DNA of 64,000 nucleotides from an uncultured Candidatus Saccharibacteria bacterium. GTDB lineage: Bacteria; Patescibacteriota; UBA1384; DTJR01. Each line of letters opens with the position of its first letter. Within the stretch, counting starts at the first letter, position 1. Of the stretch, positions 11,497-44,200 are shown one piece after another. A model generated the notes under the pieces. It made no database searches. It worked only from the letters and a program-made list of their open reading frames with translations, and was not told the DNA's origin. The stretch covers positions 4,875 through 68,874 of the forward strand of contig CAZAOT010000001.1 in NCBI GenBank assembly GCA_964487045.1, written 5' to 3'. The position numbers and the translations under genes were made by a program.

Positions 11497-11499
11497 AAA

Positions 11500-16384: not shown

Positions 16385-16385
16385 A

Positions 16386-17381
16386 GTGGCCCTTCAAGCG
16401 AAAAAAATTGGATGTGTGATTCTAAACTGGAATAACTATCCCGATACCTTGGCTTGCCTAGACTCGCTCTTGAAGGCAAAGGGGAATTTTTCTATCTACT
16501 TGGTTGATAATAATTCTTCCGATAGGTCGGTAACTAAGATATTAGAATGGTTCGATAAGAACAAATTAAATTGTAGAGTGCTTGAAGAAAGCGAATTCCT
16601 GTCTTATAAGCCTAAGAGCAAGGACTCTAGATTCTTTTTGATAAAAAATGATGAGAACTATGGTTTTGCTGGAGGAAATAATATTGGGATTAATTTCGCT
16701 CTAAATCAATTGAATGATTACATAATGCTTCTCAATAACGATACTCTCGTGCATCATAACTTTTTAAGTCAGTTGGTCAAAAAGATTTCGTCCAGTGCAA
16801 AAATTGGTTCAGTTCAGTCGCTAATGCTCTCGATTGATGGAAAATCGATAGACTCTACGGGCCAGGAGATGATCGGAGGAAAAATTCAAGACATTGCCCA
16901 CGGAAAGAATTTTGAAAAATCGATCGAAGGCCGAGAGATATTTGGTGCTTGCGCCGGAGCTGCCCTGTTTAGATCGGAAGTATTTAAGAAAATTGGTCTT
17001 TTTGATTCAGCTTTTCATACTTCGCTAGAAGACGTTGATTTATCTTGGAGAGCTCGTTTAGCGGGGTATAAGAGCTATGTTGAGTCAAGTAGCATCGTTT
17101 ACCATAAAGGTGGGGTGTCTAGAAAAAAAGGGATTAGGCTTGATTCGACGTCGAGCTATGTCGGCTCGAGAAACACTTTAATGATTTATTTGAGATATTT
17201 CCCGGTATCAGCAAGATATTTTTTACCGAGCGTCTATCATCTATTGATCTGCTCTAGCTGTGCGCTCAAACAAGGAAAGGTCGAAGATTTATTTTCGCTC
17301 TTAACTCACTCTTTTAGTTTAAGATTAAAAATAAATAAAAATAAAAACCTAAAATCAGTTAGGAAGAAATGGCTAAAGTAG
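16386..17381 (+). CDS. glycosyltransferase family 2
   Basis: GCVILNWNNYPDTLACLDSL ... YLVDNNSSD GT-A motifs. Confidence 0.65.
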   Translation: MALQAKKIGCVILNWNNYPDTLACLDSLLKAKGNFSIYLVDNNSSDRSVTKILEWFDKNKLNCRVLEESEFLSYKPKSKDSRFFLIKNDENYGFAGGNNIGINFALNQLNDYIMLLNNDTLVHHNFLSQLVKKISSSAKIGSVQSLMLSIDGKSIDSTGQEMIGGKIQDIAHGKNFEKSIEGREIFGACAGAALFRSEVFKKIGLFDSAFHTSLEDVDLSWRARLAGYKSYVESSSIVYHKGGVSRKKGIRLDSTSSYVGSRNTLMIYLRYFPVSARYFLPSVYHLLICSSCALKQGKVEDLFSLLTHSFSLRLKINKNKNLKSVRKKWLK

Positions 17382-18511
17382 AAGAGAAGCAAAGAGAACT
17401 GACCTATCTTGATAAGGTTGATTTTTTTGACAATAATTTTGATTTCTTGCGGTTCTTAGCTGCAACCATGGTTATTGTCGGGCATACCTTTCCTCTATTT
17501 GGTAGCAATTTTGATCCACTGAGCAAAATTACTGAGACCGTGTCGCTTGGACCTCTTGGACTTTTTATATTTTTTATCATAAGCGGCTTTCTTATTACTA
17601 AGAGCTGGCTTGATAAGCCGAACTTTTTTGATTTTTTCAAGAAGAGATTGCTTCGAATAATGCCTGGTCTTATTCTGGCAACCCTTTTTGGCTTCTTGGT
17701 GATTGGTCCACTTGCTACCTCACTAAGTACCAAAGAGTATTTTAAAAACTCGTCGAGCTTCGAATATCTTAAGAATATATTTTTTATGACAAGGGTTGGA
17801 ATACCTAGCGTTTTTGAAAATAACCCTTATTCAGCCGCAATTAATGGATCCCTATGGAGTTTGCCAGTTGAATTTTGGATGTATATTGCTGTGGCAGTGC
17901 TTGGACTTATTGGAATTCTCAAACGAGCTAAGCTTTTTGTTCCTTTTGTAATTCTGGTAATTCTGGCGATGAATTGGCATGTTTTGGTTAGGCCAGAATA
18001 TAAGGGGATGGTGGTGCTCGGAATTTCAGCAGTGCAGTTTTTTCGCCTGGGCCTTTTCTTTGCACTTGGAAGCGCTTTTTATCTATATCGACGTTTGGTA
18101 ATTTTAGATATAAAACTAGTAATCTTTGCCTTAGCAATTCTTGTGCTGACGTTTCACACCACTTTGAGTGATTTAGCGCTAACTTTCATTCTTCCATACG
18201 TAGTTTTGGCATTCGCCTATATTCCGAAAGCAAGATTTCTAAGGAAGTGGGGAAAATTCGGGGATTTCTCTTATGGCATGTATGTTTATGCTTTTCCGGT
18301 TCAACAAACAATTATTCATTTTCTCAAAGATAAAATTAACATGTTCGAATTTTTTTGCTTGGCTTTCATTGTAACTTTGATTCTTTCTTACGGGTCGTGG
18401 CACTTGGTTGAAAAGCAGGCGCTAAAACTTAAAAAGAAACCGATTATTAAGCCAATAGTCGATGGCTTAAGAAAAGCTTTTAGAAAAGTAGTCCCTGGTA
18501 GCTCTCTTTAA
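17369..18511 (+). CDS. acyltransferase family 3 membrane O-acyltransferase
   Basis: FLRFLAATMVIVGHTF N-terminal motif and about 10 TM helices. Confidence 0.65.
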   Translation: MAKVEEKQRELTYLDKVDFFDNNFDFLRFLAATMVIVGHTFPLFGSNFDPLSKITETVSLGPLGLFIFFIISGFLITKSWLDKPNFFDFFKKRLLRIMPGLILATLFGFLVIGPLATSLSTKEYFKNSSSFEYLKNIFFMTRVGIPSVFENNPYSAAINGSLWSLPVEFWMYIAVAVLGLIGILKRAKLFVPFVILVILAMNWHVLVRPEYKGMVVLGISAVQFFRLGLFFALGSAFYLYRRLVILDIKLVIFALAILVLTFHTTLSDLALTFILPYVVLAFAYIPKARFLRKWGKFGDFSYGMYVYAFPVQQTIIHFLKDKINMFEFFCLAFIVTLILSYGSWHLVEKQALKLKKKPIIKPIVDGLRKAFRKVVPGSSL

Positions 18512-24189: not shown

Positions 24190-24218
24190 TTGACTTGAAG
24201 CCGATATTATGTTATTTT
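24190..24218 (+). promoter_or_regulatory. candidate sigma70-type promoter TTGACT-N17-TATTTT
   Basis: read directly upstream of G+C-rich gene; weak -10. Confidence 0.3.
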
Positions 24219-24268
24219 TTTGTGTCAGGTTTTTTGCAGCCTGCATCACAGCAAGGGAGGGTTGTACC

Positions 24269-25675
24269 TTGAAACTTCGAGATTTGACTAGGGTTAGTAC
24301 GGCCGGTCAGCTTCATCATCTTCTGAGTAAGAAACGAACCCGCAATGAGAATGTCGAGCTGGGGGCTCTGCTCGAGAGTAATCTAGCGCTTGCCAGGCGA
24401 CTGGTCACCTTGGTGGCTGGCTCTGCTGACGCTAGTCTGGTCAAGATGTTCTCACCGATCTTCTGTCTGCTTTCGTCATCTTTGAGGGCGCAGATGATTG
24501 AGTCTTTCAAGCCGTTCAAGAGCAGAGAGTTTCTGTTCTTCGTCTCAAGTCTACCGGCCAAGGGGCTAAGGTACTTGATCAGGGCCCTCGATAAGATGTC
24601 GTCCGTTGACGACACGAGGTTTTGTCTCGGAAAGCTAGTCGTATCAGGCAATCCCGAATGGCCGGGTGTTATCGGCGAGGCTTTTTCGGACAAGGACCTT
24701 GACAGGTTGCGGGCGCGTGAGCCGATCTGTAGCGAACAATCAGAGGAATTCACTTCTCTACAGGCTATTACCTACATGATCGGTAGCTTGCTCTCAGCCA
24801 GCGTCATTCTTCTGCCGGTGTGTGGTCGGAATCCTCGACCCGAATACAACCTCGCTGGTTTCAAGCTGACAGAGATCAGGCCTCATGAGACATTGGTTAT
24901 GAATGGAGAGAAGTCTCAGAACCACTGGCTTCCTTGGGTATTTCAGACAGAGGAGGGAGTTGAGAAGGCGCTCCACTTACTCGAATTCCTCGTCGGCAGT
25001 CTGAGCCTCTGCGATCAGGGCAACGAGTTGCTCAACAGGATTGGTGACGATGCCGAAAGGATGCTGGTAGAGATCAGTGAGCGCTGGGAAGCAATCAAGA
25101 AAGGCGTGCATCGCTGGGTACTCCCAGATGGACAGATGAAGCTTCGGTTCGGAGGCGACTTTGTCTTCTGTGGCCTGATGGTGACAGAACTTCACCCCGG
25201 GAAGAAAGTACCCGAGATGACGGTCAGAATCGTACAGAATCGATTCGGTTACCTCAAGTTCAAGGATCGGCCTCTCGACGAGAATGGCCTTTTTAAGGAC
25301 ATGGACCTCGGTAAGCAGGTCGGACTGCTCGAACTTGGCATCAACCACAAGGTGGTCTGCTGGCTGGCTGATTACGCTTTGCGACCTTCAAACTACAAGC
25401 CAAAGAATGGTGAAGGCAAGAGTCTTGACCCGATCAAGGTCGCGTTTGGCGAAGGCAAGCTGCCTGCTGGGTTTCACCTTCCTGAGTATATGAATCTCCC
25501 GGACAAGATAAAGCAGAACGGCAAGCCTTACGAAGCCAGTGGCGATGCGAAGAAGCGCGCCGAAGCGCTGGGCTGGGCCGAGCCGACTGATGGTCAGACC
25601 TTTAGGATGTCGGGAGATCCTCTTAAGGAAGGCCTTGGCCTTCCGGAACCCCTCGACATCGTATATGATGTCTGA
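24269..25675 (+). CDS. hypothetical protein, G+C-rich orphan
   Basis: visibly G+C-rich relative to flanks; GGGAGGG Shine-Dalgarno 7 nt before TTG 24269 (MKLRDLTRV...); no recognisable domain. Confidence 0.5.
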   Translation: MKLRDLTRVSTAGQLHHLLSKKRTRNENVELGALLESNLALARRLVTLVAGSADASLVKMFSPIFCLLSSSLRAQMIESFKPFKSREFLFFVSSLPAKGLRYLIRALDKMSSVDDTRFCLGKLVVSGNPEWPGVIGEAFSDKDLDRLRAREPICSEQSEEFTSLQAITYMIGSLLSASVILLPVCGRNPRPEYNLAGFKLTEIRPHETLVMNGEKSQNHWLPWVFQTEEGVEKALHLLEFLVGSLSLCDQGNELLNRIGDDAERMLVEISERWEAIKKGVHRWVLPDGQMKLRFGGDFVFCGLMVTELHPGKKVPEMTVRIVQNRFGYLKFKDRPLDENGLFKDMDLGKQVGLLELGINHKVVCWLADYALRPSNYKPKNGEGKSLDPIKVAFGEGKLPAGFHLPEYMNLPDKIKQNGKPYEASGDAKKRAEALGWAEPTDGQTFRMSGDPLKEGLGLPEPLDIVYDV

Positions 25676-25692
25676 TATCTCTCTATCTCAAA

Positions 25693-25734
25693 GGGGCGCA
25701 CTGTCATCCGACAGGGCGCCCCTTCTCTTTTTTG
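25693..25734 (+). terminator. rho-independent terminator
   Basis: GGGGCGCACTGTC...GACAGGGCGCCCC stem then TTCTCTTTTTTG. Confidence 0.7.
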
Positions 25735-27711: not shown

Positions 27712-27766
27712 AGTTTGATTTTACTCCTTAATCCAGTGTTTCGGCAAGGGTTATGTTAATTTTTCT

Positions 27767-27795
27767 TCTTGATTTGGCGCCTCGCTTGTACTATA
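27767..27795 (+). promoter_or_regulatory. sigma70-type promoter TTGATT-N17-TATACT
   Basis: -35 at 27767-27772, -10 at 27790-27795, exact 17-nt spacer; precedes G+C-rich plsY-like operon. Confidence 0.5.
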
Positions 27796-27803
27796 CTCTG
27801 CGG

Positions 27804-27821
27804 ATCTCAAGATTTCTCTTG
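27804..27821 (+). promoter_or_regulatory. perfect palindrome CTCAAGA-TTTC-TCTTGAG (candidate operator)
   Basis: 7-bp inverted repeat immediately downstream of the -10 element. Confidence 0.4.
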
Positions 27822-27868
27822 AGTTGCGACGAAATAGTGAACATTGACATAGAAGGGAATGGTTACGA

Positions 27869-29638
27869 ATGCAAGAGCTGGTGCTGTTTGTTGCTGTAAT
27901 CGGCTATCTGATCGGGTCGATACCGATCGGCTATCTGATTGGCAAGAAGTTCGGCGTGAATCTTCTCGAAGAAGGGTCTAAGGCGATCGGCCGGACCAAC
28001 CTCGAGCGGGTTCTCGCGCCGATCATCGGCGCCAAGCGCGCCAAGCTCTGGGGTTATATCGGCGAGGCAGGCGACCAGCTCAAGGGACTCGTCCCAATTC
28101 TGATTGGTATGCTTCTGCTTCGTCTTGACCCCATCTCGCTCGCTGTCCTCGCTACTTCGCTCATTCTCGGCCACTGCTACTCTGCGTTTCTTTTCTTCAG
28201 GGGTGGCAAGGGAGTCGCGACGACGATGGGCATCGTGCTTGCTCTTTGCTGGTACATCGCTGTGCCATGCTACGTGTTCTGGTTTGCCGCCAAGAAAGCG
28301 CTCGAGACCAAGACGCAGGAGGCAACCGCACTCGCTTCGATTCGCGGAGGTCTTCTGGTTGGTGTTCTGGGAGTCATGGTCACGCACGACCTGGCCATGC
28401 AGATCTTCTTCGCCTTTGCTGCGCTTCACATCGTTTTTGCTCACCGCGAGAACCTGAAGCGCTACAGGCAGGAACAGCTGCAGAAGAAGCTTGAGAAAGC
28501 AAGCTTCCCGGACGATATGCCGACCGGTGTATTCATCACCGATGCGGCTACGAACAATCCTGAGACGGTCAAGCGGCTTCTGATGCAAAAGAAGAAGTTC
28601 GCCTGGCTCGTCAACCTCTTTCCGGCCCAGTTCGTCTGCGACGTGATTCTCCCCATCATCCCGATGAAGTACCTGAAGATGGGCGAGGTCATCCTCGAGA
28701 ATGATCTTGGGGCCAAGGTCAGAGTTGTGACCTGGGGCTACCCGGACATCCCAAGACGAATGATGGAGAACCCGGGCCGTACGATCTCGAGGCTACTTGA
28801 TCTTTGTTCATACGTCGAGTCGCTTGGTGCAGACGACATCTGCCTTGGCGCCAACACAGCCAGTGTCGGCGACAAGGGAGCAACGCTTCAGCAGTTTGCC
28901 CAGTCGATCACGAACGGCAATCGCCTAACCTGCGTCTATGCGGTTAAGGCTGCTCTCAAAGTGCTAGACACAATGCTAATCCCTCGAGGAACCGCTGTAG
29001 CAACTGTGGTTGGCAGTGGCGGCTCAGTAGGAGATGGCGTGTGTCAGCTTCTGCTCAAGGCCGGTATCGGACGCCTGTATTTGGTTGGAAGCACTCTTGG
29101 TAAACAGGCTGGTCAGGCAACTGAGCTCTCGAGGCGTTTTGGGGTTCCGGTTGAAGAACTGGGACTAATGGACGCCCTCTCGCGAAGTCATCTGGCCATC
29201 TTTGCCTCTAGTGGTACGGCCAGAGAGAACGCGCACAAGATCAATCCCGAGGCGCTTCCAGCAGGCTTGATTGTCGTTGACATGGAACGCCCGCGCGAGA
29301 TCTCAAAGATGCTTGCCGAGTATGTGTGGCTTCTGCCGAACGATGGTGGCATGGTTGCTATCGAAGGAACGGGCAAGGCTGGGACTGGCTTGCCTGAAGG
29401 CGTTTACTTCCCTTGTTTCAGCGAACTAGCCTTGCGCCTCTTCCGCGGAATCAGGACGAAGTGGTGCTATCCAGCTACTCTCGAGGAATTGAGGGAGGTT
29501 TGGGAAGCGGCTGAGGAGGAAGGCTTCTCTCTAGCTGGTCTGCGTCTTAATGAGCAGCCAGTTGAAGATCATGAGCTTGCTTTCCGTATCGAGCAAGCAG
29601 AGATGGCAAAAGCCTACAAACCCAGGAGGGTGACATGA
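27869..29638 (+). CDS. PlsY-like glycerol-3-phosphate acyltransferase domain fused to a C-terminal Rossmann-fold (GxGxxG) domain
   Basis: N-terminal 200 aa align by eye with PlsY (YLIGSIP, LGHCYSAFLFFRGGKGVATTMG, FAHRENLKRY) but GSGNxGATN motif is GSKAIGRTN; C-terminal about 390 aa contains VVGSGGSVGDGVCQLLLKAGIGRLYLVGST dinucleotide-binding motif; G+C-rich. Confidence 0.55.
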   Translation: MQELVLFVAVIGYLIGSIPIGYLIGKKFGVNLLEEGSKAIGRTNLERVLAPIIGAKRAKLWGYIGEAGDQLKGLVPILIGMLLLRLDPISLAVLATSLILGHCYSAFLFFRGGKGVATTMGIVLALCWYIAVPCYVFWFAAKKALETKTQEATALASIRGGLLVGVLGVMVTHDLAMQIFFAFAALHIVFAHRENLKRYRQEQLQKKLEKASFPDDMPTGVFITDAATNNPETVKRLLMQKKKFAWLVNLFPAQFVCDVILPIIPMKYLKMGEVILENDLGAKVRVVTWGYPDIPRRMMENPGRTISRLLDLCSYVESLGADDICLGANTASVGDKGATLQQFAQSITNGNRLTCVYAVKAALKVLDTMLIPRGTAVATVVGSGGSVGDGVCQLLLKAGIGRLYLVGSTLGKQAGQATELSRRFGVPVEELGLMDALSRSHLAIFASSGTARENAHKINPEALPAGLIVVDMERPREISKMLAEYVWLLPNDGGMVAIEGTGKAGTGLPEGVYFPCFSELALRLFRGIRTKWCYPATLEELREVWEAAEEEGFSLAGLRLNEQPVEDHELAFRIEQAEMAKAYKPRRVT

Positions 29639-30804
29639 ACAGTAGGGTGGCCGTGCTTGGAGCGGGCCAGTTTGGCTTTGCTCTTGCTTGCCGATTGGCT
29701 CAAGGCGGGATAAAGACGGTTCTGTGGGGCCGTAGTCCGCATATTCTCAGCGGTCCGCGGGCAGTCTCACAGCGGTTCAGTGGTGGATCGCCGCCCCTTG
29801 GGCTTCAAGTTACTGGCGGATCAGGTCTTCCCAGCCTGGATGACTTTGACCTGGTCTTTGTCGCCACTGATTCTTCTGGACTCGCTGAGCTAGTCCCGAT
29901 GATCGCCCAGAGTGATATTGGCGATACGCCGGTTCTTCTTGTCCAGAAGGGTCTTGTGAATGGTGTCTCTCCCGTGGAATTCGCTAGCGCCGCCGGACTT
30001 AACGCCGGTTCGTTTACCGGCGCGGCCTTCGCAAGTGACATCTATCTCGGCTCTGAGGCGATGATGATCGTCGCAGCCGAGGACGTTACCCTCTGCATTA
30101 CAGTGATGGAGCTGCTTAAGCCCCTTAAGTTCTGGATAACTGCATGTAGTGATCCAGACGCGATCTGCGCTGCCAACGTAGCGCGAACGATCACCTCGAT
30201 CGAGATGGGTATTGTCAGCGGCTTCGCGGACTACTTGCAGCGCCAATCAAAGTATGCACTGGTGCCGCATAGGTCGCCTGACTTTACTCCAACCGAGATC
30301 GCGGCGGCCACCGCTAGCATCCAGTACGAGTGGCGGGTTGTCTCAGCGATGCTTAGTCCGGTGATTAACTCCTTGCTCTATCCAGAAGTAGTCTCGGATG
30401 ATGTTTCGATCGTGCGCAACATCAATCGCGAGCGCATTCTCAGGGTCCTTTCCGCTGACAACTACCTCTGCAGCGGGATGATACTCGACCGTAACGACAG
30501 GGGAGGAGATTCTCGGGTGACTCTGGGTCTTCCTCTCGCCACACCGGTCTCGCGCAACTGGCGGTTTGGCTATGCGCTTGGCTGCTGGCGTTATGTCCCG
30601 GATGCCATAAGGGCGGTTGCTGACCTTGGAGTGATCCAGGGGCAGCAGAACGCTCTTGATCTATACAAGCGGTTCGGTGCGAGCGCCCCGCCGTTTCTCA
30701 CCTCCCTTGGCCGAATCTTGACTGAAGTGTCAAAGGTCGAGGAGGAGATCCAGGTCATTCGCGATCGTCGCGATGCCTGGTATGAAAAGTACGCTTCTAG
30801 CTGA
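29635..30804 (+). CDS. divergent NAD(P)H-dependent glycerol-3-phosphate dehydrogenase (GpsA)-like protein
   Basis: VAVLGAGQFGFALACRLAQGGIKTVLWGRS matches GpsA N-terminus; region equivalent to GGAVKNVIAIGAG reads AANVARTITSIEMG (Lys to Arg); overlapping stop/start with upstream gene. Confidence 0.5.
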   Translation: MNSRVAVLGAGQFGFALACRLAQGGIKTVLWGRSPHILSGPRAVSQRFSGGSPPLGLQVTGGSGLPSLDDFDLVFVATDSSGLAELVPMIAQSDIGDTPVLLVQKGLVNGVSPVEFASAAGLNAGSFTGAAFASDIYLGSEAMMIVAAEDVTLCITVMELLKPLKFWITACSDPDAICAANVARTITSIEMGIVSGFADYLQRQSKYALVPHRSPDFTPTEIAAATASIQYEWRVVSAMLSPVINSLLYPEVVSDDVSIVRNINRERILRVLSADNYLCSGMILDRNDRGGDSRVTLGLPLATPVSRNWRFGYALGCWRYVPDAIRAVADLGVIQGQQNALDLYKRFGASAPPFLTSLGRILTEVSKVEEEIQVIRDRRDAWYEKYASS

Positions 30805-30823
30805 GCTATGCTCGGTCTTACAC

Positions 30824-30861
30824 GGGCTCCCGGAAGTTTTCCGGGAGCCCGTTTCTTTTTT
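30824..30861 (+). terminator. rho-independent terminator
   Basis: perfect 10-bp stem GGGCTCCCGG/CCGGGAGCCC, 7-nt loop, GTTTCTTTTTT tail. Confidence 0.75.
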
Positions 30862-31729
30862 AGTACAAATCTAACTTTGGTTTTTTCTTTTGATAATTTG
30901 CGAATGCTTTTTTCCAACTTTTTGACCAGTAACCGGGCTTCTTGCGGTAATCTTCAAACAGAAATAATCCGCAGTACGGACAAAGTTTCTCCAATTGTTC
31001 GCGCATCGAATCTTTATCCTCTGGCAGAGTTTTTCTTCCTAAATTGAAGCCCATAATTCGATCAATTGATCCAGCATTCGGGCAAGCATAATAGCCGTGC
31101 TTGGTAAGTGATTTGCCGCACTGGTTTAGAACTAGGCAGCCATTTCTAAAATCTGCATCCTTATATCGTTTGCGATCTCGAGGTGCAGCGTTGATAGAGA
31201 TAAAGTAGCCGTGTATTTGAGAGGTCTTTTTATTGTTTTGGATAATTATGCCTTCTGGCAACTTTTTAATCTCATCTTGAACTTTTTTACCGACCCCATT
31301 GGTGATGATTTTAATTTCTGATTTTGGTGAAAAATCGCGTTTATATTTTAAAAGCAAGCGAAACATCCCCATAGTTTCTGGTTCGAGCGTTGATTCTCCG
31401 CCATAAACCGTTATCCTTCCCCATTTCTTACCCGCTTTTTTCGACTCGGAAATAAATTTTTTCACTTGCTCAATCGTCATTTTCTCGCGCGATGGAGCTT
31501 GGCGACACATCTGAGAGCAGTCGTAACATTTGAGGTTGCAATGATAGGTGGTGATTAAATCTACTTTATTAGGGTCGCTTCTGTAAGCATAACCAAGTAT
31601 CTTGGTCACTCTAGGATTGATTCGAAAACGGTGCCAATTATCTTTTAAGAAAAAATAGCTCCAGCGAGCAGCTTTTTTCAGTGGTTTTATTCTATATACT
31701 ATCTTCCGAACAAAAAAGTTTTCTGTCAC
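30860..31729 (-). CDS. radical SAM domain protein, function unknown
   Basis: CNLKCYDCS (CxxxCxxC) 4Fe-4S motif about 60 aa from N-terminus; extra C-terminal cysteines (CPNAGS, CPYCG). Confidence 0.55.
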   Translation of the reverse strand: MTENFFVRKIVYRIKPLKKAARWSYFFLKDNWHRFRINPRVTKILGYAYRSDPNKVDLITTYHCNLKCYDCSQMCRQAPSREKMTIEQVKKFISESKKAGKKWGRITVYGGESTLEPETMGMFRLLLKYKRDFSPKSEIKIITNGVGKKVQDEIKKLPEGIIIQNNKKTSQIHGYFISINAAPRDRKRYKDADFRNGCLVLNQCGKSLTKHGYYACPNAGSIDRIMGFNLGRKTLPEDKDSMREQLEKLCPYCGLFLFEDYRKKPGYWSKSWKKAFANYQKKKPKLDLY

Positions 31730-36828: not shown

Positions 36829-37230
36829 ATATCGATTCTGCTATAATTAATCTGTACTAATTTTTCTGCAAAACATTTACTTCTGCGTGAAGTATCTCAA
36901 AAGAGGGGGCACCCCGATTAAATTTACATATTTAACGGGTCGAGGTGACGTACTTTTTTCGCCTAAAATCTGATAGGTAATCGTTCAGTCTCGCCTGGCA
37001 CCCTATTGCATAGCGCGATAGAACTATCACAAGTCTAACAACCTCTTTTTGCTCGCTTTGTTAAAGTCGAAATCATTTCTTTGGTTTTTACAAAGTAGAG
37101 CTAAGCGAAACCAGTCGCTATTATTAGTTTTTTGTTCGAAGGAGGGGAAAATTCGGCAATTGTTTTGTTAGTGATTTTTTTCATACTAATGAGTGGGCGG
37201 TAAGATTTTAAAAAATATTTAAACAAAAGA

Positions 37231-37264
37231 GGCGGGAGCGAAGGGGTTGCCCTTCGCTCCCGCC
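37231..37264 (-). terminator. rho-independent terminator for minus-strand small-protein operon
   Basis: 14-bp stem GGCGGGAGCGAAGG/CCTTCGCTCCCGCC; on minus strand followed by TCTTTTGTTTAAATATTTTTT. Confidence 0.65.
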
Positions 37265-37270
37265 GGGATG

Positions 37271-37423
37271 CTACGCGCTTTTCGCGCGCTTGATGTGGTA
37301 GGCGAGTGAGATGATGGCGCACACCCCACAGAAGAATGGGATTGCGCGTATGTGCTCACCTCCATAGGCCTCAATAAGGCCGCCAGTGACCAGCGATAGA
37401 ATCGAATAGCCCAGAAGACTCAT
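37271..37423 (-). CDS. small hydrophobic protein (50 aa), G+C-rich cassette
   Basis: ATG 37423 preceded by AGGAGTA; translation MSLLGYSILSLVTGGLIEAYGGEHIRAIPFFCGVCAIISLAYHIKRAKSA done by hand. Confidence 0.45.
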   Translation of the reverse strand: MSLLGYSILSLVTGGLIEAYGGEHIRAIPFFCGVCAIISLAYHIKRAKSA

Positions 37424-37433
37424 CGTGATACTC

Positions 37434-37709
37434 CTATTCTAATCCCAGAGTTGCTCCGCCGGCAAAGCGGCGTTCTGTTTCAGCGAGGAGAGCCTTTCCC
37501 TCGATCGTCACCATGTTGTCCGACATGATTCCTTGCTTGTCTGGACAAATGATGAGTTCTGCTTCGCCTGTCAGTCTGACTTCAGCGGAACTCGTTTCCG
37601 CTATCTCGACAAAAAGAGGTGGCTCGTGTGAGCCAGACTTATTCTTCAGACAGACCCAGATACGCGAGCCGACAGGTTGGCGCCTGAGGTCGAAGAAGTT
37701 TAGCTTCAC
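37434..37709 (-). CDS. small soluble protein (91 aa), G+C-rich cassette
   Basis: GTG 37709 preceded by GAGGAGGTAG; GTGA overlap with upstream gene stop; MKLNFFDLRRQ...GATLGLE. Confidence 0.4.
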   Translation of the reverse strand: MKLNFFDLRRQPVGSRIWVCLKNKSGSHEPPLFVEIAETSSAEVRLTGEAELIICPDKQGIMSDNMVTIEGKALLAETERRFAGGATLGLE

Positions 37710-37927
37710 GCTACCTCCTCGCTTGACGCTTCGGCTGTTTCTTCTCTTCTTCCTCTGAACGAAGAGATGATGGCAAGGCCGCCACAGAAGATGCAATTGC
37801 CGCTTGCGAGGAGAGTCACTGAGACTGGCACGTCCTGCTTGATGTAGAGAATACCGAGCAGGACAAGTCCCATGGCGATTAGTCCGAGACCGCTAAGGAT
37901 CAGGCTTATATCCGGTTTGTATTTCAT
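37706..37927 (-). CDS. small membrane protein (73 aa), G+C-rich cassette
   Basis: ATG 37927 preceded by AAAGGGAAAG; two TM helices (LILSGLGLIAMGLVLLGILYI, CIFCGGLAIISSF). Confidence 0.45.
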   Translation of the reverse strand: MKYKPDISLILSGLGLIAMGLVLLGILYIKQDVPVSVTLLASGNCIFCGGLAIISSFRGRREETAEASSEEVA

Positions 37928-37942
37928 TGGTGCTTTCCCTTT

Positions 37943-38077
37943 CTAGCGCGTGAATGCGAACTGGGGAAGGTGCTGCCAGGCGAGAGCAATGGCAGCACAG
38001 AAGATGATCACTAGTCCTACCAAGGCGAGGTAGGCCGGCAGATTGTGCCTTTCTGATTCTAGGAATCTTAGTCGCAT
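37943..38077 (-). CDS. small membrane protein (44 aa), G+C-rich cassette
   Basis: ATG 38077 preceded by GGGAGAGGGAT; MRLRFLESERHNLPAYLALVGLVIIFCAAIALAWQHLPQFAFTR. Confidence 0.4.
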   Translation of the reverse strand: MRLRFLESERHNLPAYLALVGLVIIFCAAIALAWQHLPQFAFTR

Positions 38078-38244
38078 GATCCCTCTCCCTATGTCAAGTT
38101 TCTTGTGTTTTACAGAATTAGGATATTTTACATCAAAAAACCCACCTTATCAAGGGTGGGCGATCATTATTTGATCAGATCATGATATATTAAATGTCTT
38201 AGTCTTGAAAACTTTGCGCATAAGAAGTAGTATTACCCTGATAT

Positions 38245-38321
38245 GCACCCGTAGCTCAGCTGGATAGAGCGTTGGCTTGCGGAGCCAAAGGTCGTAGGTT
38301 CGAATCCTATCGGGTGTACCA
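38245..38321 (+). tRNA. tRNA-Arg, anticodon read as GCG
   Basis: 77-nt cloverleaf: acceptor GCACCCG/CGGGTGT, D-arm GCTCAGCTGGATAGAGC, anticodon stem TTGGC/GCCAA with loop UUGCGGA, T-arm GTAGGTTCGAATCCTAT, CCA encoded; close to E. coli tRNA-Arg by eye. Confidence 0.8.
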
Positions 38322-38322
38322 G
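38301..38322 (+). repeat. direct repeat DR-L (tRNA-Arg 3' end CGAATCCTATCGGGTGTACCAG)
   Basis: exact 22-nt match to 41187-41208. Confidence 0.85.
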
Positions 38323-39776
38323 TACGGAAATGTCAAATTTTGGGAGTTTGCGCCGCCTGCGGCGGCGACTAAATTGTAGGGAATTTTTGCTTCAAAATGC
38401 CACTTTCGATTCTGTAAGAAATGGTTCGAGCCGATATTTTTGAGAAATGTTAGAATTTCCGAATAATCTTCGGAATTTTTTAGTTTATCTGCTTTGGCAA
38501 GCGATAAAATGAACTCTTTGGCCGGTTCGAGCCAAGACAATCCTTTTTGTTCAAAATCTGTAATTTTTTCGTTAATCTCCAGCTTTTCGCTAAGTAGCTT
38601 TTGTTTTCGCAAAGTATATTCTTCGGTTGTAATGACTTCGCTCAGATATACATCGAGTAATTTTTCAAGCTGTTTCGTAATTTCTTCGAGCTTTACTTTG
38701 AGATTTTGAACAGAAGTTTTAGCCAACGTTCTTGCTTGAGTTTCTTGTTTCTCTAATTCAAACAAAACTTTTTTGGTATCTTGGCTCGACAAAGAAACTT
38801 TTTGTAAATACCCATTTATTTGCTCAACGAGTTTTTCTTCTCGCAGATAATGCTTTTCTTGGCAACCACTTTTCTTTTTTGTGCATCGGTAATAGTTGTG
38901 GCCTTTTTGTATTTCGGCAGTAATCGCACAGCCGCAACTTTTACATTTCATAAGCCCAAGAAAAGCAAAATGATGTTTTTCCTTTTTGCGAGGCTTGCCA
39001 CGATCTTTCAATACTTCTTGGCATTTATCAAAAAGTTTCTTTGGGATTATCGGTTTGTGTTTTCCTTCGTATATTTCGCCGTTATATTTCATTAGCCCAA
39101 TGTAGAAAATATTTTGTAGAATTGAATTGATATTGCTGATAGAAATCCTCTTGTTGAGATTCCCGAATAACATGTCATCTTCCGCCCAATTTGCGAGAGA
39201 ATTAAAGGTATATTTGCCGGTTGAATAGAGCTCAAAAAGCTTTCTGACTTTTCTAACCTTTATTTCGTCGACATCAATATTTCTTGTTCTCGGATTATTT
39301 ATATAGCCAACCGGCGCCCAGCCGGGCCAAACTCCATTTCGTATTTTTTGCCTTAACCCTCGTTTTACATTCTCTCGCAAATTGTCTACAAAATATTTTG
39401 ATTGACCAAAAGCAATGTTCAACATGAAAATCCCTTGAGGTGTTGGTTCAAACCAGAACGAAGGAAAACACAAGGATTTGATTTTCTGCCGGTCTATCAT
39501 GTGGATTATCTTTCCACCGTCTACACTATTTCTTGCTAACCTGTCAGGGTGCCAACTCAAAATCCCTTCCGCCTTTCCTTTTTCGATCAATTCTAACATT
39601 TCAGCGAACTTCGTTCGACCAGGTTCTTTGGCAGTTTTGGCTTCGCACAGCGAAGCGACAATTTCAAGTTTTTCTTTGGCGGCAAATTCCCGAAGCTCAA
39701 CTAGTTGAGCTTCAATCGAAAGAACTTGTCTGTCATCATCTTCAGTACTTTTGCGAGCGTAAATTATGTAGCGCAT
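38307..39776 (-). CDS. large serine recombinase (resolvase N-terminal domain, zinc ribbon, coiled coil)
   Basis: MRYIIYARKSTEDDDRQVLSIEAQ catalytic-Ser N-terminus, CKSCGC...YYRCTKKKSGC zinc ribbon, C-terminal coiled coil; start ATG 39776 preceded by AAGGAGGAAA; 3' end runs through IR1-L and 15 nt into tRNA-Arg. Confidence 0.8.
   Translation of the reverse strand: MRYIIYARKSTEDDDRQVLSIEAQLVELREFAAKEKLEIVASLCEAKTAKEPGRTKFAEMLELIEKGKAEGILSWHPDRLARNSVDGGKIIHMIDRQKIKSLCFPSFWFEPTPQGIFMLNIAFGQSKYFVDNLRENVKRGLRQKIRNGVWPGWAPVGYINNPRTRNIDVDEIKVRKVRKLFELYSTGKYTFNSLANWAEDDMLFGNLNKRISISNINSILQNIFYIGLMKYNGEIYEGKHKPIIPKKLFDKCQEVLKDRGKPRKKEKHHFAFLGLMKCKSCGCAITAEIQKGHNYYRCTKKKSGCQEKHYLREEKLVEQINGYLQKVSLSSQDTKKVLFELEKQETQARTLAKTSVQNLKVKLEEITKQLEKLLDVYLSEVITTEEYTLRKQKLLSEKLEINEKITDFEQKGLSWLEPAKEFILSLAKADKLKNSEDYSEILTFLKNIGSNHFLQNRKWHFEAKIPYNLVAAAGGANSQNLTFPYWYTR
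38316..38415. repeat. inverted repeat IR1 left copy (about 100 bp)
   Basis: near-perfect reverse complement of 39817-39916 (2 mismatches); begins with GTACCAGTAC overlapping the tRNA 3' end. Confidence 0.85.
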
Positions 39777-39816
39777 TTTCCTCCTTTTAATTTCATAAAA
39801 ATTTTCTTTTACAATC

Positions 39817-39916
39817 ACAGAATCAAAAGTGGCAATTTGAAGCAAAAATTCCCTACAATTTAGTCGCCGCCGCAGGCGGCGCAAACTCCCAAAATTTGAC
39901 ATTTCCGTACTGGTAC
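39817..39916. repeat. inverted repeat IR1 right copy
   Basis: reverse complement of 38316-38415; ends CCGTACTGGTAC. Confidence 0.85.
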
Positions 39917-40184: not shown

Positions 40185-40225
40185 ATCTCTGTACAGGCCA
40201 CAAGGCCGTGCAAGGAGTGAGAACA

Positions 40226-40846
40226 TTGTCTAAGGTCAACAGTATCCAGCTCACGTGTCTCAAGCCGAATGACTGTTCCACCCGACTTGCTCTTCCCGAA
40301 GTCACCTACGACTTTCGGGTGTGGGCTATCATCAACGACCTTGAGAAGGCCGTTGAGAAGGCGGGCGGTGCAACGCTCGCAGTCTTCGCGGGTGTTCCGT
40401 GGGAGTACGGGAGCCGCTCGGTCAACTTTCTCAACTATGTGGCCGAGATGGTGGTGAGAACAAACCGCGGCAAAGGGGAATTCATCGGAAGAAGCTATCT
40501 TGCGAGTGGCGGGATGTCACGGCTCGCAAGCTTGATGAAGGACGTTCGGCCAGACGGACAGATCAGAGCTGTGGTCGACCAAATCACGCGAACAATCTGG
40601 TCCGACCAGCCGATCCCGCGCGGTTTGCCCGACAATCTCTGGTACGAGCAGACGGACTACGAGTCGTTCTGCATCAAGTCGGGCAAAGGTGACATCATCA
40701 GGTGGGTTCCCGAGAATCAAGTTCAGGAGGAGCGGACGATGGGATTTCTCCGCTTGGAGTTTGAGGAGCCCTCTGTCAAGCACTTCTGTCAGCTAATTCA
40801 ACAGCTACATCGCTTTCCGGGTGTGGCCGAGTTCGCCAACGGCTAG
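40226..40846 (+). CDS. hypothetical protein, G+C-rich cargo of IR2 cassette
   Basis: AGGAG 8 nt before in-frame TTG 40226 (MSKVNSIQLTCLKP...); no recognisable domain; composition contrasts with A+T-rich recombinase gene. Confidence 0.5.
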   Translation: MSKVNSIQLTCLKPNDCSTRLALPEVTYDFRVWAIINDLEKAVEKAGGATLAVFAGVPWEYGSRSVNFLNYVAEMVVRTNRGKGEFIGRSYLASGGMSRLASLMKDVRPDGQIRAVVDQITRTIWSDQPIPRGLPDNLWYEQTDYESFCIKSGKGDIIRWVPENQVQEERTMGFLRLEFEEPSVKHFCQLIQQLHRFPGVAEFANG

Positions 40847-40869
40847 CTGTAGACCGGAGTACAAGCAAC

Positions 40870-40899
40870 AGGCAGACCAGCAGTGGCCTGCCTTTTTTC
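40870..40899 (+). terminator. possible rho-independent terminator
   Basis: AGGCAGACC...GGCCTGCCT imperfect stem then TTTTTTCTTG. Confidence 0.4.
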
Positions 40900-40969
40900 T
40901 TGCCGCCAAAGGAGAAATCTGCTAAGATTTCTCTAGTGAGCGAAGCTCACTAAAAAACTTGAAATTGTC

Positions 40970-42305: not shown

Positions 42306-42717
42306 CTTTCTTACTAAATTGTAGCAAAAATTCTGATAAGTAAATACCTTTTAAAATTTTGATTATTATGCTTGCTTTAGCGTGGTTTATCTGGTAAAAA
42401 ATGCATATCACGACCATGTTCGAAGGATGGTGAGCAGATGGCCAGGCATATGAGTTGGCGTAAAGGTGGTCGGGCGAGACCCAAGAGGTGTCACCGAGAG
42501 CAACCGGGTCACCCCGATCCGCAAGGTGCCCAGTGGCGTCACGAACGGTACATCGAGCAGATGCGCGCAAGCCTGAAGCCGGGACAGCTTGAGGCCCTTC
42601 AGGCGCTCAGCCACGGTTACCACAGGTACCGATGAACCACGAGCGCAGTCGTATCCAGAGTCTCAAGCTGGTCTTGTACCGGCGCGAGACTCTTCTTCTT
42701 TAATGATTGATTTTCCG

Positions 42718-43706: not shown

Positions 43707-43750
43707 GACGTGACGAGAATTCGCGTTCATTACAGAGGAGAGAGTGCCAT

Positions 43751-44179: not shown

Positions 44180-44200
44180 TGGCCGGGAGGGGAGTACAGC

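What the first reader, a model, noticed from the sequence alone, without database searches (positions are those of the whole stretch)
27760..30861. G+C-rich two-gene lipid module: PlsY-like domain fused to a Rossmann domain, plus a GpsA-like protein with Lys-to-Arg change
Gene 1 begins as a recognisable PlsY, with conserved LGHxxxxFxGGKGVAT and HRxNLxR blocks. Its acyl-phosphate/G3P motif GSGNxGATN is degraded to GSKAIGRTN. It continues for about 390 residues into a domain with a classic VVGSGGSVG dinucleotide-binding loop. PlsY fused to an oxidoreductase-like domain is not a textbook architecture.

Gene 2 has the GpsA N-terminal NAD(P) loop, but the segment equivalent to the catalytic-Lys block reads ANVARTITSI.

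The pair is driven by a consensus promoter followed by a perfect 7-bp palindrome (operator-like). It ends in a 10-bp-stem terminator. plsY-gpsA adjacency is common in bacteria, which supports the homology call. The divergence suggests an altered substrate, such as a different polyol phosphate or an acyl/alkyl donor, or a regulatory pseudo-enzyme.
Basis: partly seen in the sequence, partly recalled or inferred. Interest (0 to 1): 0.7.

Follow-up and report, generated by a model that had tools for sequence, protein, structure and literature searches.

The report
PlsY fused to acyl-reductase-type domain
A tiny-genome (Berkelbacteria-type) bacterium carries a compact, oddly G+C-rich operon in which PlsY, the enzyme that starts membrane-lipid assembly, is fused to a cysteine-dependent acyl-reductase-type domain and paired with an atypical glycerol-phosphate dehydrogenase; this conserved combination did not turn up in the literature I could search, and it may explain how such bacteria supply PlsY without the usual helper enzyme PlsX.

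Summary
Two translationally coupled genes (27869-29638 and 29635-30804, ATGA overlap) form one transcription unit that is also a sharp G+C island (56% against 42%).

Gene 2 is a full-length GpsA-fold protein from a distinct subfamily. K204 is Arg and N205 is Thr, while the K120-equivalent Lys and the SRN phosphate clamp are kept.

PlsY and the AAR-like domain occur fused in at least 17 protein clusters and as adjacent genes in at least 3 loci. The variant GpsA follows in several distant lineages.

My best reading is a self-contained unit that makes lysophosphatidic acid. The Cys-thioester domain would supply PlsY with acyl-phosphate, substituting for PlsX, which was reported missing in another CPR lineage (Nealsonbacteria). 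The chemistry is inferred, not shown.

I found no literature on this architecture. Unexplained: the module keeps high synonymous G+C in several AT-rich genomes.

The parts
27769..27797 (+). Sigma-70-like promoter, TTGATT-17-TATACT (9 of 12 consensus positions)
   Evidence: Found by the consensus scan. The -35 and -10 boxes align with the equivalent boxes upstream of the orthologous modules in L005, L006 and L007.
27801..27828 (+). Leader hairpin with core CTCAAGA-TTTC-TCTTGAG, lying directly after the -10 box
   Evidence: Inverted repeat of 12-nt arms, 83% complementary. A hairpin sits at the same place in L005, L006 and L007 with compensatory stem differences, e.g. AUCGAGA/UCUCGAU.
27844..27860 (+). 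Conserved leader block TTGACATAGAA plus a purine-rich ribosome-binding site ahead of the ATG
   Evidence: Within the aligned leaders of the window, L005, L006 and L007, TTGACATAG is the only 9-nt block identical in all four. An exact-pattern search finds it upstream of the module in those loci.
27869..29638 (+). Gene 1: fusion of PlsY and an AAR-like domain, 589 aa
   Evidence: ORF. The AlphaFold2 model has pLDDT 89.9 and pTM 0.70.
27869..28483 (+). PlsY domain (aa 1-205), membrane-embedded acyl-phosphate:G3P acyltransferase
27974..28000 (+). PlsY motif 1, GSKAIGRTN, carrying G36K, N37A and A40R relative to Aquifex PlsY
   Evidence: The roles of these residues are taken from PMC5700162.
28511..29608 (+). 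AAR / PigE-N / TAD-type domain (aa 215-580), a Cys-dependent NAD(P)-linked acyl-thioester oxidoreductase fold
29006..29032 (+). Dinucleotide-binding loop VVGSGGSVG (aa 380-388)
   Evidence: G382, G385 and G388 are invariant in the 17 PlsY fusions of alignment A5 and in the 19 sequences of alignment A3. The loop aligns with the GATGDIG loop of AAR.
29414..29416 (+). Codon of Cys516, equivalent to the catalytic Cys294 of AAR
   Evidence: FPCFSE aligns with FACFAE of 6jzq; the C294S mutant entry 6jzz shows Ser at this position. The Cys is invariant in all 19 aligned sequences and in 136 of 137 other family members.
29624..29638 (+). AGGAGG ribosome-binding site and ATGA stop/start overlap, indicating translational coupling of genes 1 and 2
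   Evidence: Sequence read directly. The two genes abut in the same way in L044 and L046, where gene 2 starts on the last base of gene 1.
29635..30804 (+). Gene 2: variant GpsA-like NAD(P)H dehydrogenase, 389 aa
   Evidence: PF01210 scores 31.7 bits. hhalign against canonical GpsA gives 99.85% probability, E 7e-31, over 317 columns. The top 24 Foldseek PDB hits to the model are all G3P dehydrogenases.
30184..30189 (+). Codons of R184-T185, replacing the K204-N205 pair of GPDH
   Evidence: R184 is invariant in all 9 module-linked copies.
30550..30558 (+). Codons of S306-R307-N308, the phosphate clamp equivalent to R269/N270 of human GPDH
   Evidence: Invariant in both the variant and the canonical sequences.
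30822..30862 (+). Intrinsic terminator: 14-bp perfect stem, 3-nt loop and a T-run

Best explanation
The two genes form a conserved three-part unit for the first acylation step of glycerophospholipid synthesis.

Shown:
1. The N-terminal 205 residues are a PlsY with every substrate-contacting residue in place.
2. The C-terminal 375 residues have the AAR / PigE-N / TAD fold, with the catalytic Cys and the NAD(P) loop invariant. I place this domain on the cytoplasmic side, where the PlsY active site lies. That placement rests on my recollection of PlsY topology and was not tested here.
3. Gene 2 is a GpsA-fold dehydrogenase that keeps the general-acid Lys and the phosphate clamp.
4. PlsY and the AAR-like domain are found fused or adjacent in many lineages, with fusion and fission interleaved on a rough tree. 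Gene 2's subfamily follows them, translationally coupled, in several distant lineages.

Inferred mechanism. An acyl group is loaded as a thioester on Cys516, either from an acyl thioester or by NAD(P)+-dependent oxidation of a fatty aldehyde through a hemithioacetal. The thioester is then resolved by phosphate rather than by hydride. This gives acyl-phosphate, which passes directly to the fused PlsY. The chemistry is that of GAPDH and aspartate-semialdehyde dehydrogenase (ASADH), and the function is that of PlsX. The GpsA-like partner supplies G3P from DHAP. If the acyl source is an aldehyde, the NAD(P)H made by the AAR-like domain is consumed by the GpsA-like enzyme, so that aldehyde + DHAP gives lysophosphatidic acid with no net redox change and no ATP or ACP.

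Confidence. It is about 0.75 for the general statement that this is a lysophosphatidate-forming unit in which the AAR-like domain handles PlsY's acyl donor. It is about 0.35-0.4 for the specific acyl-phosphate-supplying direction.

For: Linkage of PlsY and the AAR-like domain:
- At least 17 PlsY fusions occur among the 150 best representative clusters.
- Split plsY/AAR-like pairs occur in L007, L014 and L129.
- PlsY-linked domains cluster together on a neighbour-joining tree, with fused and split forms interleaved.
- There is an independent fusion to a PlsC-type acyltransferase (P0176) and fusions to lipid-binding START-like domains.

GpsA-like partner. It directly follows the fusion or split pair in the window, L005, L006, L007, L010, L014, L044 and L046. 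The signature residues are shared by all copies.

Precedents and need:
- The AAR-fold TAD domain is proposed to resolve its Cys thioester with ammonia rather than hydride (bioRxiv 10.1101/2024.10.28.620694).
- CPR (Nealsonbacteria) genomes were reported to have PlsY and PlsC but no PlsX or ACP. The authors say this raises the question of which enzyme produces the acyl-phosphate (PMC7242380).
- The lineage is Berkelbacteria, a CPR group.
- In L046 and L129 the unit sits among housekeeping genes such as infC-rpmI-rplT and queA/tsaE.
Against: - The characterised relatives (AAR; PigE N-domain, PMC8341465) run reductively, from thioester to aldehyde. They do not make acyl-phosphate.
- The Arg or Lys after the second beta-strand suggests NADP(H), which in cells usually favours reduction.
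- No phosphate site specific to the PlsY-linked clade was found. The ARPR motif next to the nicotinamide loop is shared with AAR-like proteins that have other partners.
- Absence of plsX, fakAB or acpP could not be checked in this genome, because only 64 kb is visible.
- The systematic active-site changes in the GpsA-like partner are not explained by a plain DHAP reductase role.
- Some PlsY-AAR units (L015, L129) have no adjacent GpsA-like gene.
Confidence: 0.4

Rival explanations
1. Reductive branch. The AAR-like domain works as its characterised relatives do. It takes an activated acyl group (acyl-phosphate shared with PlsY, or an acyl thioester) onto Cys516 and reduces it with NADPH to a fatty aldehyde. 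The aldehyde is then used for a non-ester lipid such as an alkyl or alkenyl glycerol phosphate, possibly with the variant GpsA-like enzyme reducing a phosphorylated intermediate. Alternatively it acts as an overflow valve for the reactive acyl-phosphate pool.
For: - The closest characterised families are aldehyde-forming reductases: AAR and the PigE N-domain (PMC8341465).
- The cofactor loop has NADP-type features.
- The oxyanion Asn37 of PlsY is variable in the fused family (A, G, S or N).
- The GpsA-like partner has systematically altered catalytic residues but keeps the phosphate clamp, which is compatible with a different phosphorylated substrate.
- Acyl reductase, G3P/DHAP acyltransferase and a C2-ketoreductase are three of the four activities of eukaryotic ether-lipid synthesis (my own knowledge).
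Against: - No AGPS-like or other ether-forming enzyme lies in the unit or its conserved neighbourhood.
- All lipids detected in a CPR-enriched sample were acylglycerols (PMC7242380).
- Several fused members keep a fully canonical PlsY motif 1 (GSGNIGATN in P0040 and P0042).
- An enzyme that drains PlsY's substrate has no obvious reason to be fused to what looks like a housekeeping PlsY.
Confidence: 0.22
2. Acyl-DHAP route. The PlsY domain acylates dihydroxyacetone phosphate instead of G3P. The variant GpsA-like enzyme (K204R, N205T, T264L) is a 1-acyl-DHAP reductase that finishes lysophosphatidate synthesis. The AAR-like domain handles the acyl donor as in the main model.
For: The GpsA-like subfamily keeps the phosphate clamp and the K120-equivalent Lys but changes the other residues around the substrate C1/C2 position. 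It does so consistently, in all nine module-linked copies. K120 and K204 lie at the C2 carbonyl, and K120 contacts the C1 hydroxyl (PMC9119304). Genes 1 and 2 are translationally coupled.
Against: PlsY keeps H177 and S142, which bind the 2-OH of G3P, together with the whole phosphate clamp (PMC5700162). Known acyl-DHAP reductases are short-chain dehydrogenases, not GpsA-fold proteins (my own knowledge). Some PlsY-AAR units lack the GpsA-like gene.
Confidence: 0.1
3. Ordinary PlsY plus ordinary (fast-evolving) GpsA. The fused domain is only regulatory: an NAD(P)(H)- or acyl-binding sensor that tunes PlsY activity to redox or acyl supply, without turning over a substrate.
For: PlsY and GpsA-like catalytic cores are intact. 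CPR proteins are generally divergent. TAD binds NAD, yet no redox turnover could be shown for it.
Against: The Cys516/E519 motif, the TNGN motif and the cofactor loop are invariant across relatives that are 20-60% identical. This points to catalysis rather than binding only. The K-to-R signature of the partner is also present in L044, which has an ordinary bacterial gene context. That argues against mere CPR-style drift.
Confidence: 0.1
4. A recently acquired foreign island that is decaying or functionally irrelevant. The G+C richness marks horizontal transfer and the motif changes mark loss of function.
For: There is a sharp G+C island bounded by the promoter and the terminator. Other G+C-rich islands in the window include one next to a tRNA gene and a serine recombinase gene.
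Against: - The module sits in the same syntenic slot (VIT1-like and HIT genes on the left, PPIase and GH1 genes on the right) in lineages whose proteins are only 42-62% identical.
- The reading frames are intact and the catalytic residues conserved.
- The 5' leader is conserved, with compensatory changes in the hairpin.
- The contig is identical in four independent sequencing runs.
Confidence: 0.03

Closest known systems
PlsX/PlsY/GpsA pathway of bacterial phosphatidic-acid synthesis
   Same: The PlsY domain has the same fold and the same G3P and acyl-phosphate residues. A GpsA-fold dehydrogenase is encoded next to it. The logic of supplying both PlsY substrates locally is the same.
   Different: No PlsX-family (PF02504) domain was detected in either protein. 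An AAR-type Cys/NAD(P) domain is fused to PlsY instead. The GpsA partner is a separate subfamily (K204R, N205T/P/H, ADxxLC in place of GDLVLTC) that is only 20-24% identical to canonical GpsA. PlsY falls below the TIGR00023 equivalog cut-off and has Ala in place of Asn37.
Cyanobacterial acyl-ACP reductase (AAR; PDB 6jzq, TIGR04058)
   Different: Identity is only about 20%, and the TIGR04058 score is far below its cut-off (21.5 against 449.7). The domain is fused to a membrane acyltransferase rather than partnered with aldehyde-deformylating oxygenase. It has RPR where AAR has YPK next to the nicotinamide loop. The lineage is reported to lack ACP, so the acyl donor is probably different.
N-terminal thioester-reductase domain of PigE (prodigiosin MAP pathway; NF053554)
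   Same: This is the best-scoring curated family for the C-domain (E 7.7e-17 for the window protein; 194 bits for the split relative P0033). Both are AAR-like domains fused to the enzyme of a neighbouring step.
   Different: PigE is fused to a class-III aminotransferase and works in secondary metabolism. Here the partner is PlsY, in core lipid synthesis. The full-length PigE cut-off (850 bits) is not approached.
Terminal amidation domain (TAD) of CarI (PDB 9e4s/9e50)
   Different: TAD is the C-terminal domain of NRPS modules, is NAD-specific through an Asp, and is about 15% identical. Its proposed nucleophile is ammonia, not phosphate, and its own activity is still unproven.
Phosphorylating aldehyde dehydrogenases (GAPDH, aspartate-semialdehyde dehydrogenase, ArgC)
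   Same: This is a mechanistic analogy only: a Cys thioester intermediate interconverted with an acyl-phosphate and an aldehyde, using NAD(P). There is a weak Pfam hit to the Semialdhyde_dh NAD-binding domain (E 0.0065, below the cut-off).
   Different: The catalytic domain has a different fold. No membership is claimed.

Membership tests
PlsY (PF02660 / TIGR00023) | Profile score above the curated Pfam cut-off | tested here: met
   PF02660 scores 105.3 bits against 24.1, covering aa 11-198 and profile positions 1-163 of 164.
PlsY (PF02660 / TIGR00023) | NCBIfam equivalog score (TIGR00023, 137.2 bits or more) | tested here: not met
   The score is 111.7 bits. The other Berkelbacteria-type fusion, P0037, passes with 151.1 bits.
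PlsY (PF02660 / TIGR00023) | Seven-helix membrane fold of Aquifex PlsY | tested here: met
PlsY (PF02660 / TIGR00023) | G3P phosphate clamp (S35, R45, K104, N180) and 2-OH ligands (S142, H177) | tested here: met
   All six residues are conserved. Their roles are from PMC5700162.
PlsY (PF02660 / TIGR00023) | Acyl-phosphate site: H92, T41 and the GGKG loop | tested here: met
   All are conserved.
PlsY (PF02660 / TIGR00023) | Oxyanion-stabilising Asn37 | tested here: not met
   The residue is Ala39 in the window protein. In Aquifex PlsY the N37A mutant keeps 18% activity, and Ser or Gly occur naturally at this position.
PlsY (PF02660 / TIGR00023) | Acyl-phosphate:G3P acyltransferase activity | not testable with these tools
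   This needs an enzyme assay or complementation.
Acyl-ACP reductase family (AAR, TIGR04058) and AAR-like superfamily | Equivalog-level sequence score | tested here: not met
   TIGR04058 scores 21.5 bits against a cut-off of 449.7. The protein is therefore not an AAR orthologue.
Acyl-ACP reductase family (AAR, TIGR04058) and AAR-like superfamily | Two-domain AAR fold | tested here: met
Acyl-ACP reductase family (AAR, TIGR04058) and AAR-like superfamily | Catalytic Cys (Cys294 of AAR) and adjacent Glu | tested here: met
   C516 and E519 align with FACFAE of AAR and are invariant in the family.
Acyl-ACP reductase family (AAR, TIGR04058) and AAR-like superfamily | NAD(P)-binding GxGxxG loop | tested here: met
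   GSGGSVG at aa 382-388, with the glycines invariant.
Acyl-ACP reductase family (AAR, TIGR04058) and AAR-like superfamily | Acyl-ACP substrate and aldehyde product; partnership with aldehyde-deformylating oxygenase | not testable with these tools
   No biochemical data exist. No oxygenase gene lies in the conserved neighbourhood.
GpsA / NAD(P)H-dependent G3P dehydrogenase | N-terminal domain profile (PF01210) above its cut-off | tested here: met
   31.7 bits against 23.1.
GpsA / NAD(P)H-dependent G3P dehydrogenase | C-terminal domain profile (PF07479) and NCBIfam GpsA models above their cut-offs | tested here: not met
   PF07479 scores 12.5 bits against 25. The best NCBIfam model scores 55.4 bits against 202.
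GpsA / NAD(P)H-dependent G3P dehydrogenase | Full-length homology and fold | tested here: met
   hhalign gives 99.85% probability, E 6.9e-31, over 317 columns. The model's top 24 PDB matches are all GPDHs, with 3k96 at TM 0.82. Caveat: canonical GpsA sequences were in the alignment used for modelling.
GpsA / NAD(P)H-dependent G3P dehydrogenase | General-acid Lys (K120 of human GPDH) and phosphate clamp (R269/N270) | tested here: met
   K105 and S306-R307-N308 are invariant.
GpsA / NAD(P)H-dependent G3P dehydrogenase | Second oxyanion-hole Lys (K204), N205, and the GDLVLTC block with T264 | tested here: not met
   The window protein has R184 and T185, with ADNYLC in place of GDLVLTC. The same pattern is found in all nine module-linked copies. 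The roles of K120 and K204 are from PMC9119304.
PlsX (acyl-ACP:phosphate transacylase, PF02504) | Sequence membership | tested here: not met
   Neither protein gives a PF02504 or PlsX hit in the Pfam or NCBIfam scans. Only a functional analogy is proposed.

The most novel reading that the evidence does not exclude
The AAR-like domain is a previously unrecognised acyl-phosphate-forming enzyme. It would resolve a Cys516 acyl-thioester by phosphorolysis and could be fed by NAD(P)+-dependent oxidation of scavenged fatty aldehydes. Fused to PlsY and redox-coupled to the variant GpsA-like enzyme, it would make lysophosphatidic acid from a fatty aldehyde (or acyl thioester) and DHAP without ATP, ACP or PlsX. 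That would answer how PlsX-less CPR bacteria prime membrane-lipid synthesis.
Probability: 0.3. Interest if true: 0.85.

Novelty: new variant of a known kind. Interest (0 to 1): 0.68.

Why it matters
PlsY needs acyl-phosphate. The only known sources are PlsX (from acyl-ACP) and the fatty-acid kinase FakAB. Genome surveys of CPR bacteria found PlsY and PlsC but no PlsX or ACP, and explicitly left the source of acyl-phosphate open (PMC7242380).

A conserved fusion, or tight operon, of PlsY with a Cys-thioester/NAD(P) enzyme gives a concrete and testable candidate for that missing step. Alternatively it points to a new lipid branch that passes through fatty aldehydes.

It also defines two uncharacterised subfamilies, each with clear signature residues: the PlsY-linked clade of the AAR-like family and a K204R GpsA clade. 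It extends the known partners of the AAR fold from hydrocarbon and natural-product pathways into core membrane biogenesis.

Separately, the module keeps a high synonymous G+C content in several AT-rich genomes. This is a puzzle in genome evolution that simple horizontal transfer does not explain.

Tried and rejected
1. A third word-indexed homologue search with the fusion alignment returned only the candidates of the first search and added nothing.
2. The afdb50 fold library was unavailable. I therefore could not look for annotated UniProt proteins with the same architecture.
3. Two alignments were too divergent for locus scanning. The scans that did run were driven by two peptide patterns each, so they are not a census. 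The GTDB scan found one further Berkelbacteria fusion among 29 AAR-like loci. The metagenome scan returned mostly stand-alone AAR-like genes.
4. I looked for a clade-specific phosphate site. The invariant Arg474 in the ARPR motif looked promising, but the same motif occurs in AAR-like proteins with unrelated partners. It does not discriminate.
5. I checked whether the conserved 305-aa upstream partner of the stand-alone AAR-like genes is a hidden PlsY. It is not (hhalign probability 0.2%), and it has no Pfam, NCBIfam or PDB match.
6. Other PlsY proteins of 600-620 aa from the first search (P0007, P0008, P0015, P0017-P0019) have no AAR-like domain. Their C-terminal extensions are unrelated.
7. 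Rfam found no known RNA family in the leader. The whole-leader folding z-scores are not significant. Only the local hairpin is supported.
8. No fusion-like match was found in the plasmid or phage collections. The hits covered either the PlsY part or the AAR-like part, never both.
9. Literature searches for the fusion found nothing relevant.
10. The 241-aa ORF on the minus strand (27863-28588), antisense to gene 1, is treated as a by-product of the high G+C content.

Full report
**What is there.**
The region holds two co-directional ORFs, 27869-29638 (589 aa) and 29635-30804 (389 aa). The stop codon of the first overlaps the start codon of the second (ATGA), and an AGGAGG sits 5 nt upstream of the second ATG. 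A promoter-like site, TTGATT-17-TATACT (9 of 12 consensus positions), lies at 27769-27797. A terminator with a 14-bp perfect stem lies at 30822-30852. The unit has 56.2% G+C. Other 2.9-kb windows average 41.8% (sd 3.1, maximum 50.2%). The stretch above 52% G+C (27801-30800) coincides with the transcription unit. The same contig structure was assembled from four independent sequencing runs, so it is not a chimera.

**Gene 1, N-terminal part.**

I mapped the functional residues defined by the Aquifex structures and mutants (PMC5700162):
- The G3P phosphate clamp (S35, R45, K104, N180) is kept.
- The 2-OH ligands (S142, H177) are kept.
- The acyl-phosphate ligands (T41, H92, the GGKG loop) are kept.
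- The only changes are G36K, N37A and A40R.

N37 is thought to stabilise the oxyanion. The N37A mutant keeps 18% activity, and Ser or Gly occur naturally at that position. Within the fused family the position varies (A, G, S or N). The motif is therefore altered but not degraded. The domain falls below the NCBIfam equivalog cut-off (111.7 against 137.2 bits).

**Gene 1, C-terminal part.**
Residues of about 215-580 are not a generic Rossmann domain.
- They hit the N-terminal reductase region of PigE (NF053554, E 7.7e-17) and acyl-ACP reductase (TIGR04058, E 1.2e-4).
- They hit the AAR crystal structures by sequence (6jzq, E 1.4e-8).
- The catalytic Cys294 of AAR (FACFAE; Ser in the C294S entry 6jzz) aligns with C516 (FPCFSE).
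- C516, E519 and the three glycines of the GSGGSVG loop are invariant in all fusions. The Cys is present in 136 of 137 other family members examined.

AAR and the PigE N-domain reduce an acyl thioester to an aldehyde through an acyl-Cys intermediate (PMC8341465). For TAD the authors propose that the same thioester is resolved by ammonia instead of hydride.

**Gene 2.**
The N-domain passes Pfam PF01210 (31.7 against 23.1 bits), but the C-domain and all NCBIfam GpsA models fall below their cut-offs. A profile of nine module-linked copies aligns with a profile of canonical GpsA over 317 columns at 99.85% probability, E 7e-31. The top 24 PDB matches of the model (pLDDT 78) are all G3P dehydrogenases.

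The family has a consistent signature:
- The K-N pair of canonical GpsA (K204/N205 in human GPDH) is R-T/P/H.
- GDLVLTC becomes ADxxLC.
- SGPSFA becomes TGAAFA.
- The K120-equivalent Lys (K105) and the SRN phosphate clamp (S306-R307-N308) are invariant.

In human GPDH, K120 and K204 together form the oxyanion hole at C2, and K120 also contacts the C1 hydroxyl (PMC9119304). It is a clade character, and it is also present in a distant copy in an ordinary bacterial context (L044).

**How general the association is.**
Close relatives are rare. The word-indexed search of 5.8 billion clusters found only five. An exhaustive profile search with the C-domain found 1,235 representative clusters (465 at E of 1e-10 or better).

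Among the best 150:
- At least 17 are PlsY fusions.
- Other partners include a PlsC-type acyltransferase (P0176), START-like lipid-binding domains, a PilZ domain and class-III aminotransferases (PigE-like).

Split versions, with plsY immediately upstream of the AAR-like gene, occur in L007, L014 and L129. On a rough neighbour-joining tree (no bootstrap), PlsY-linked domains group together apart from the other partner classes. Fused and split forms interleave even within the window's own sub-clade.

The variant GpsA-like gene directly follows the PlsY/AAR unit in the window, L005, L006, L007, L010, L014, L044 and L046, where the fusion proteins are only 27-62% identical to the window's. It is absent next to the units in L015 and L129.

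The lineage is Candidatus Berkelbacteria, according to the NCBI name of P0023 and the GTDB record of L015. The window also carries CPR-typical content: a polysaccharide and nonulosonic-acid gene cluster, tRNA synthetase genes and giant surface-protein genes. It has no other lipid genes.

**Interpretation.**
The repeated fusion, fission and translational coupling argue that the three activities act on one pathway step. PlsY joins acyl-phosphate and G3P. A GpsA-fold enzyme with an intact phosphate clamp is the natural G3P supplier. The AAR-like domain shares with PlsY only the acyl donor.

My preferred model is that the acyl-Cys516 thioester is resolved by phosphate to give acyl-phosphate for the fused PlsY. 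This would replace PlsX, which was reported missing together with ACP in the CPR lineage Nealsonbacteria, leaving the acyl-phosphate source an open question (PMC7242380). If the acyl group enters by oxidation of a fatty aldehyde, the NAD(P)H produced would balance the DHAP reduction by gene 2.

This chemistry is inferred by analogy with GAPDH and ASADH and with the TAD proposal. Nothing here demonstrates it. Against it:
- The characterised relatives are reductive.
- The cofactor loop looks NADP-type.
- I found no clade-specific phosphate site.
- I could not check this genome for plsX or fakAB.

The main rival is a reductive branch that makes fatty aldehyde for a non-ester lipid or as an overflow valve. 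It would give a reason for the altered GpsA site, but it lacks an ether-forming enzyme and conflicts with the acylglycerol-only lipids reported for a CPR-enriched sample. An acyl-DHAP route and a purely regulatory domain are less likely. A decaying foreign island is essentially excluded by synteny and residue conservation.

**Regulatory leader.**
The upstream region is conserved in four lineages (window, L005, L006, L007). It comprises the promoter boxes, a hairpin directly after the -10 box and a TTGACATAG block ahead of the ribosome-binding site. The hairpin stems differ by compensatory changes (CUCAAGA/UCUUGAG against AUCGAGA/UCUCGAU). A 5'-UTR stem-loop is therefore more likely than a protein operator. 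RNAalifold also suggests weak pairing between the UUUCUC of the hairpin and the Shine-Dalgarno region. With only four sequences this is only a lead. No Rfam family matches.

**Composition puzzle.**
Module genes have GC3 of 0.53-0.74, against 0.29-0.54 for their neighbours. This holds in the window, L006 and L010 (which are syntenic, with proteins 42-62% identical) and in two unrelated genomic contexts, L046 and L129. It does not hold in L044, L015, L050 or L051. A single old transfer should have lost this signal, so it remains unexplained.

**Novelty.**
All three parts belong to known superfamilies. However, I found no description of the PlsY/AAR-like architecture or of the K204R GpsA clade in the searchable literature. 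I rate it a new variant of a known kind, and interesting mainly because it makes the CPR acyl-phosphate question testable.

Noticed in passing
window 27801-30800; L006 10001-13940; L010 8253-13254; L046 1195-4034; L129 4388-6110: The plsY/AAR-like(/gpsA-like) unit is a sharp island of high synonymous G+C (GC3 0.53-0.74, against 0.29-0.54 in neighbouring genes). This is seen in several AT-rich genomes, in three unrelated genomic contexts, and in syntenic orthologues that are only 42-62% identical. Amelioration should have erased the trace of a single old transfer. Relatives in L044, L015, L050 and L051 show no such bias.
   Followed up: partly
window 24301-25700, 37201-38000, 40201-40900, 42401-42800, 43701-44600, 47501-48800, 51301-52000: Further G+C-rich islands (above 52% in 300-nt windows) lie in a background of about 41% G+C. 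They include an unknown 488-aa ORF (24209-25675) whose L006 counterpart, a 453-aa ORF with no Pfam hit in the same position, is also G+C-rich. They also include ORFs without any Pfam hit (40208-40846, 44015-44584). One of two adjacent GT4 glycosyltransferase genes is G+C-rich (47513-48730, GC3 0.70) while its neighbour (48777-49958) has GC3 0.42.
   Followed up: partly
window 38074-38097 (- strand), with tRNA gene 38245-38318 and serine recombinase gene 38307-39902: The leader block TTGACATAG, followed by GGGAG and an ATG, recurs in front of a small ORF of about 49 aa at the edge of the 37-38 kb G+C-rich island. That island abuts a tRNA gene and a large serine recombinase gene, which looks like an integrated element.
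   Followed up: partly
L010 11187-13254; L006 12966-13940; L005 3215-4640; window 30860-31729 (-): In relatives, the module is followed by one or two more G+C-rich genes. One gives a weak dihydroorotate-dehydrogenase-like hit (PF01180, E 0.001). The other is a 350-aa protein with an MHDH/MHEH motif and no family hit. In the window this slot is occupied instead by an AT-rich radical-SAM gene on the opposite strand.
   Followed up: partly
L015 807-2528 (Candidatus Berkelbacteria MAG, GTDB representative): This is a second, distinct type of PlsY/AAR-like fusion in Berkelbacteria (83% identical to P0037 in the AAR-like domain, which is itself 26% identical to the window protein). The PlsY domain of P0037 passes the TIGR00023 equivalog cut-off. 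There is no adjacent GpsA-like gene and no G+C bias. I do not know whether the window's genome also has this type.
   Followed up: partly
L052-L128 (metagenome loci), e.g. L058 3020-5035: There is a large family of stand-alone AAR-like proteins of about 360 aa with the same ARPRD and ACMAET motifs. In 42 of 80 loci they are preceded by a conserved 305-aa protein that has no Pfam, NCBIfam or PDB match. In 17 loci they are preceded by a hexapeptide-repeat transferase. The context is housekeeping (coaX, dus, greA, lysS). Their function is unknown.
   Followed up: partly
P0176, P0054, P0148, P0082, P0064/P0068/P0073/P0075 (representative proteins): Other fusions of the AAR-like domain exist: with a PlsC-type acyltransferase (PF01553), with START/polyketide-cyclase lipid-binding domains, with PilZ, and with an unidentified N-terminal region of about 330 aa in proteins of about 700 aa. 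GTDB loci encoding AAR-like proteins of similar size come from Actinomycetota.
   Followed up: partly
window 27863-28588 (- strand): A 241-aa ORF lies antisense to gene 1. It is most likely a stop-codon-poor artefact of the high G+C content, not a gene.
   Followed up: no
window 471-18511 and 52712-63063: There is a polysaccharide and nonulosonic-acid biosynthesis cluster (dehydratases, a DegT aminotransferase, NeuB, a flippase and an acyltransferase_3). There are also two giant secreted proteins (1967 and 1487 aa) with fibronectin-III, purple-acid-phosphatase-N and laminin-G domains. An acetyl-CoA-synthetase-like AMP-binding enzyme is encoded at 2819-4666, and a similar enzyme (same Pfam domains) lies 3.5 kb from the module in L010.
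   Followed up: no
L046 5283-6041: In the P0034-type lineage a gene with the DAGK catalytic domain (a lipid kinase) lies about 1.2 kb from the module, beyond infC-rpmI-rplT. This may be a lipid-recycling context.
   Followed up: no
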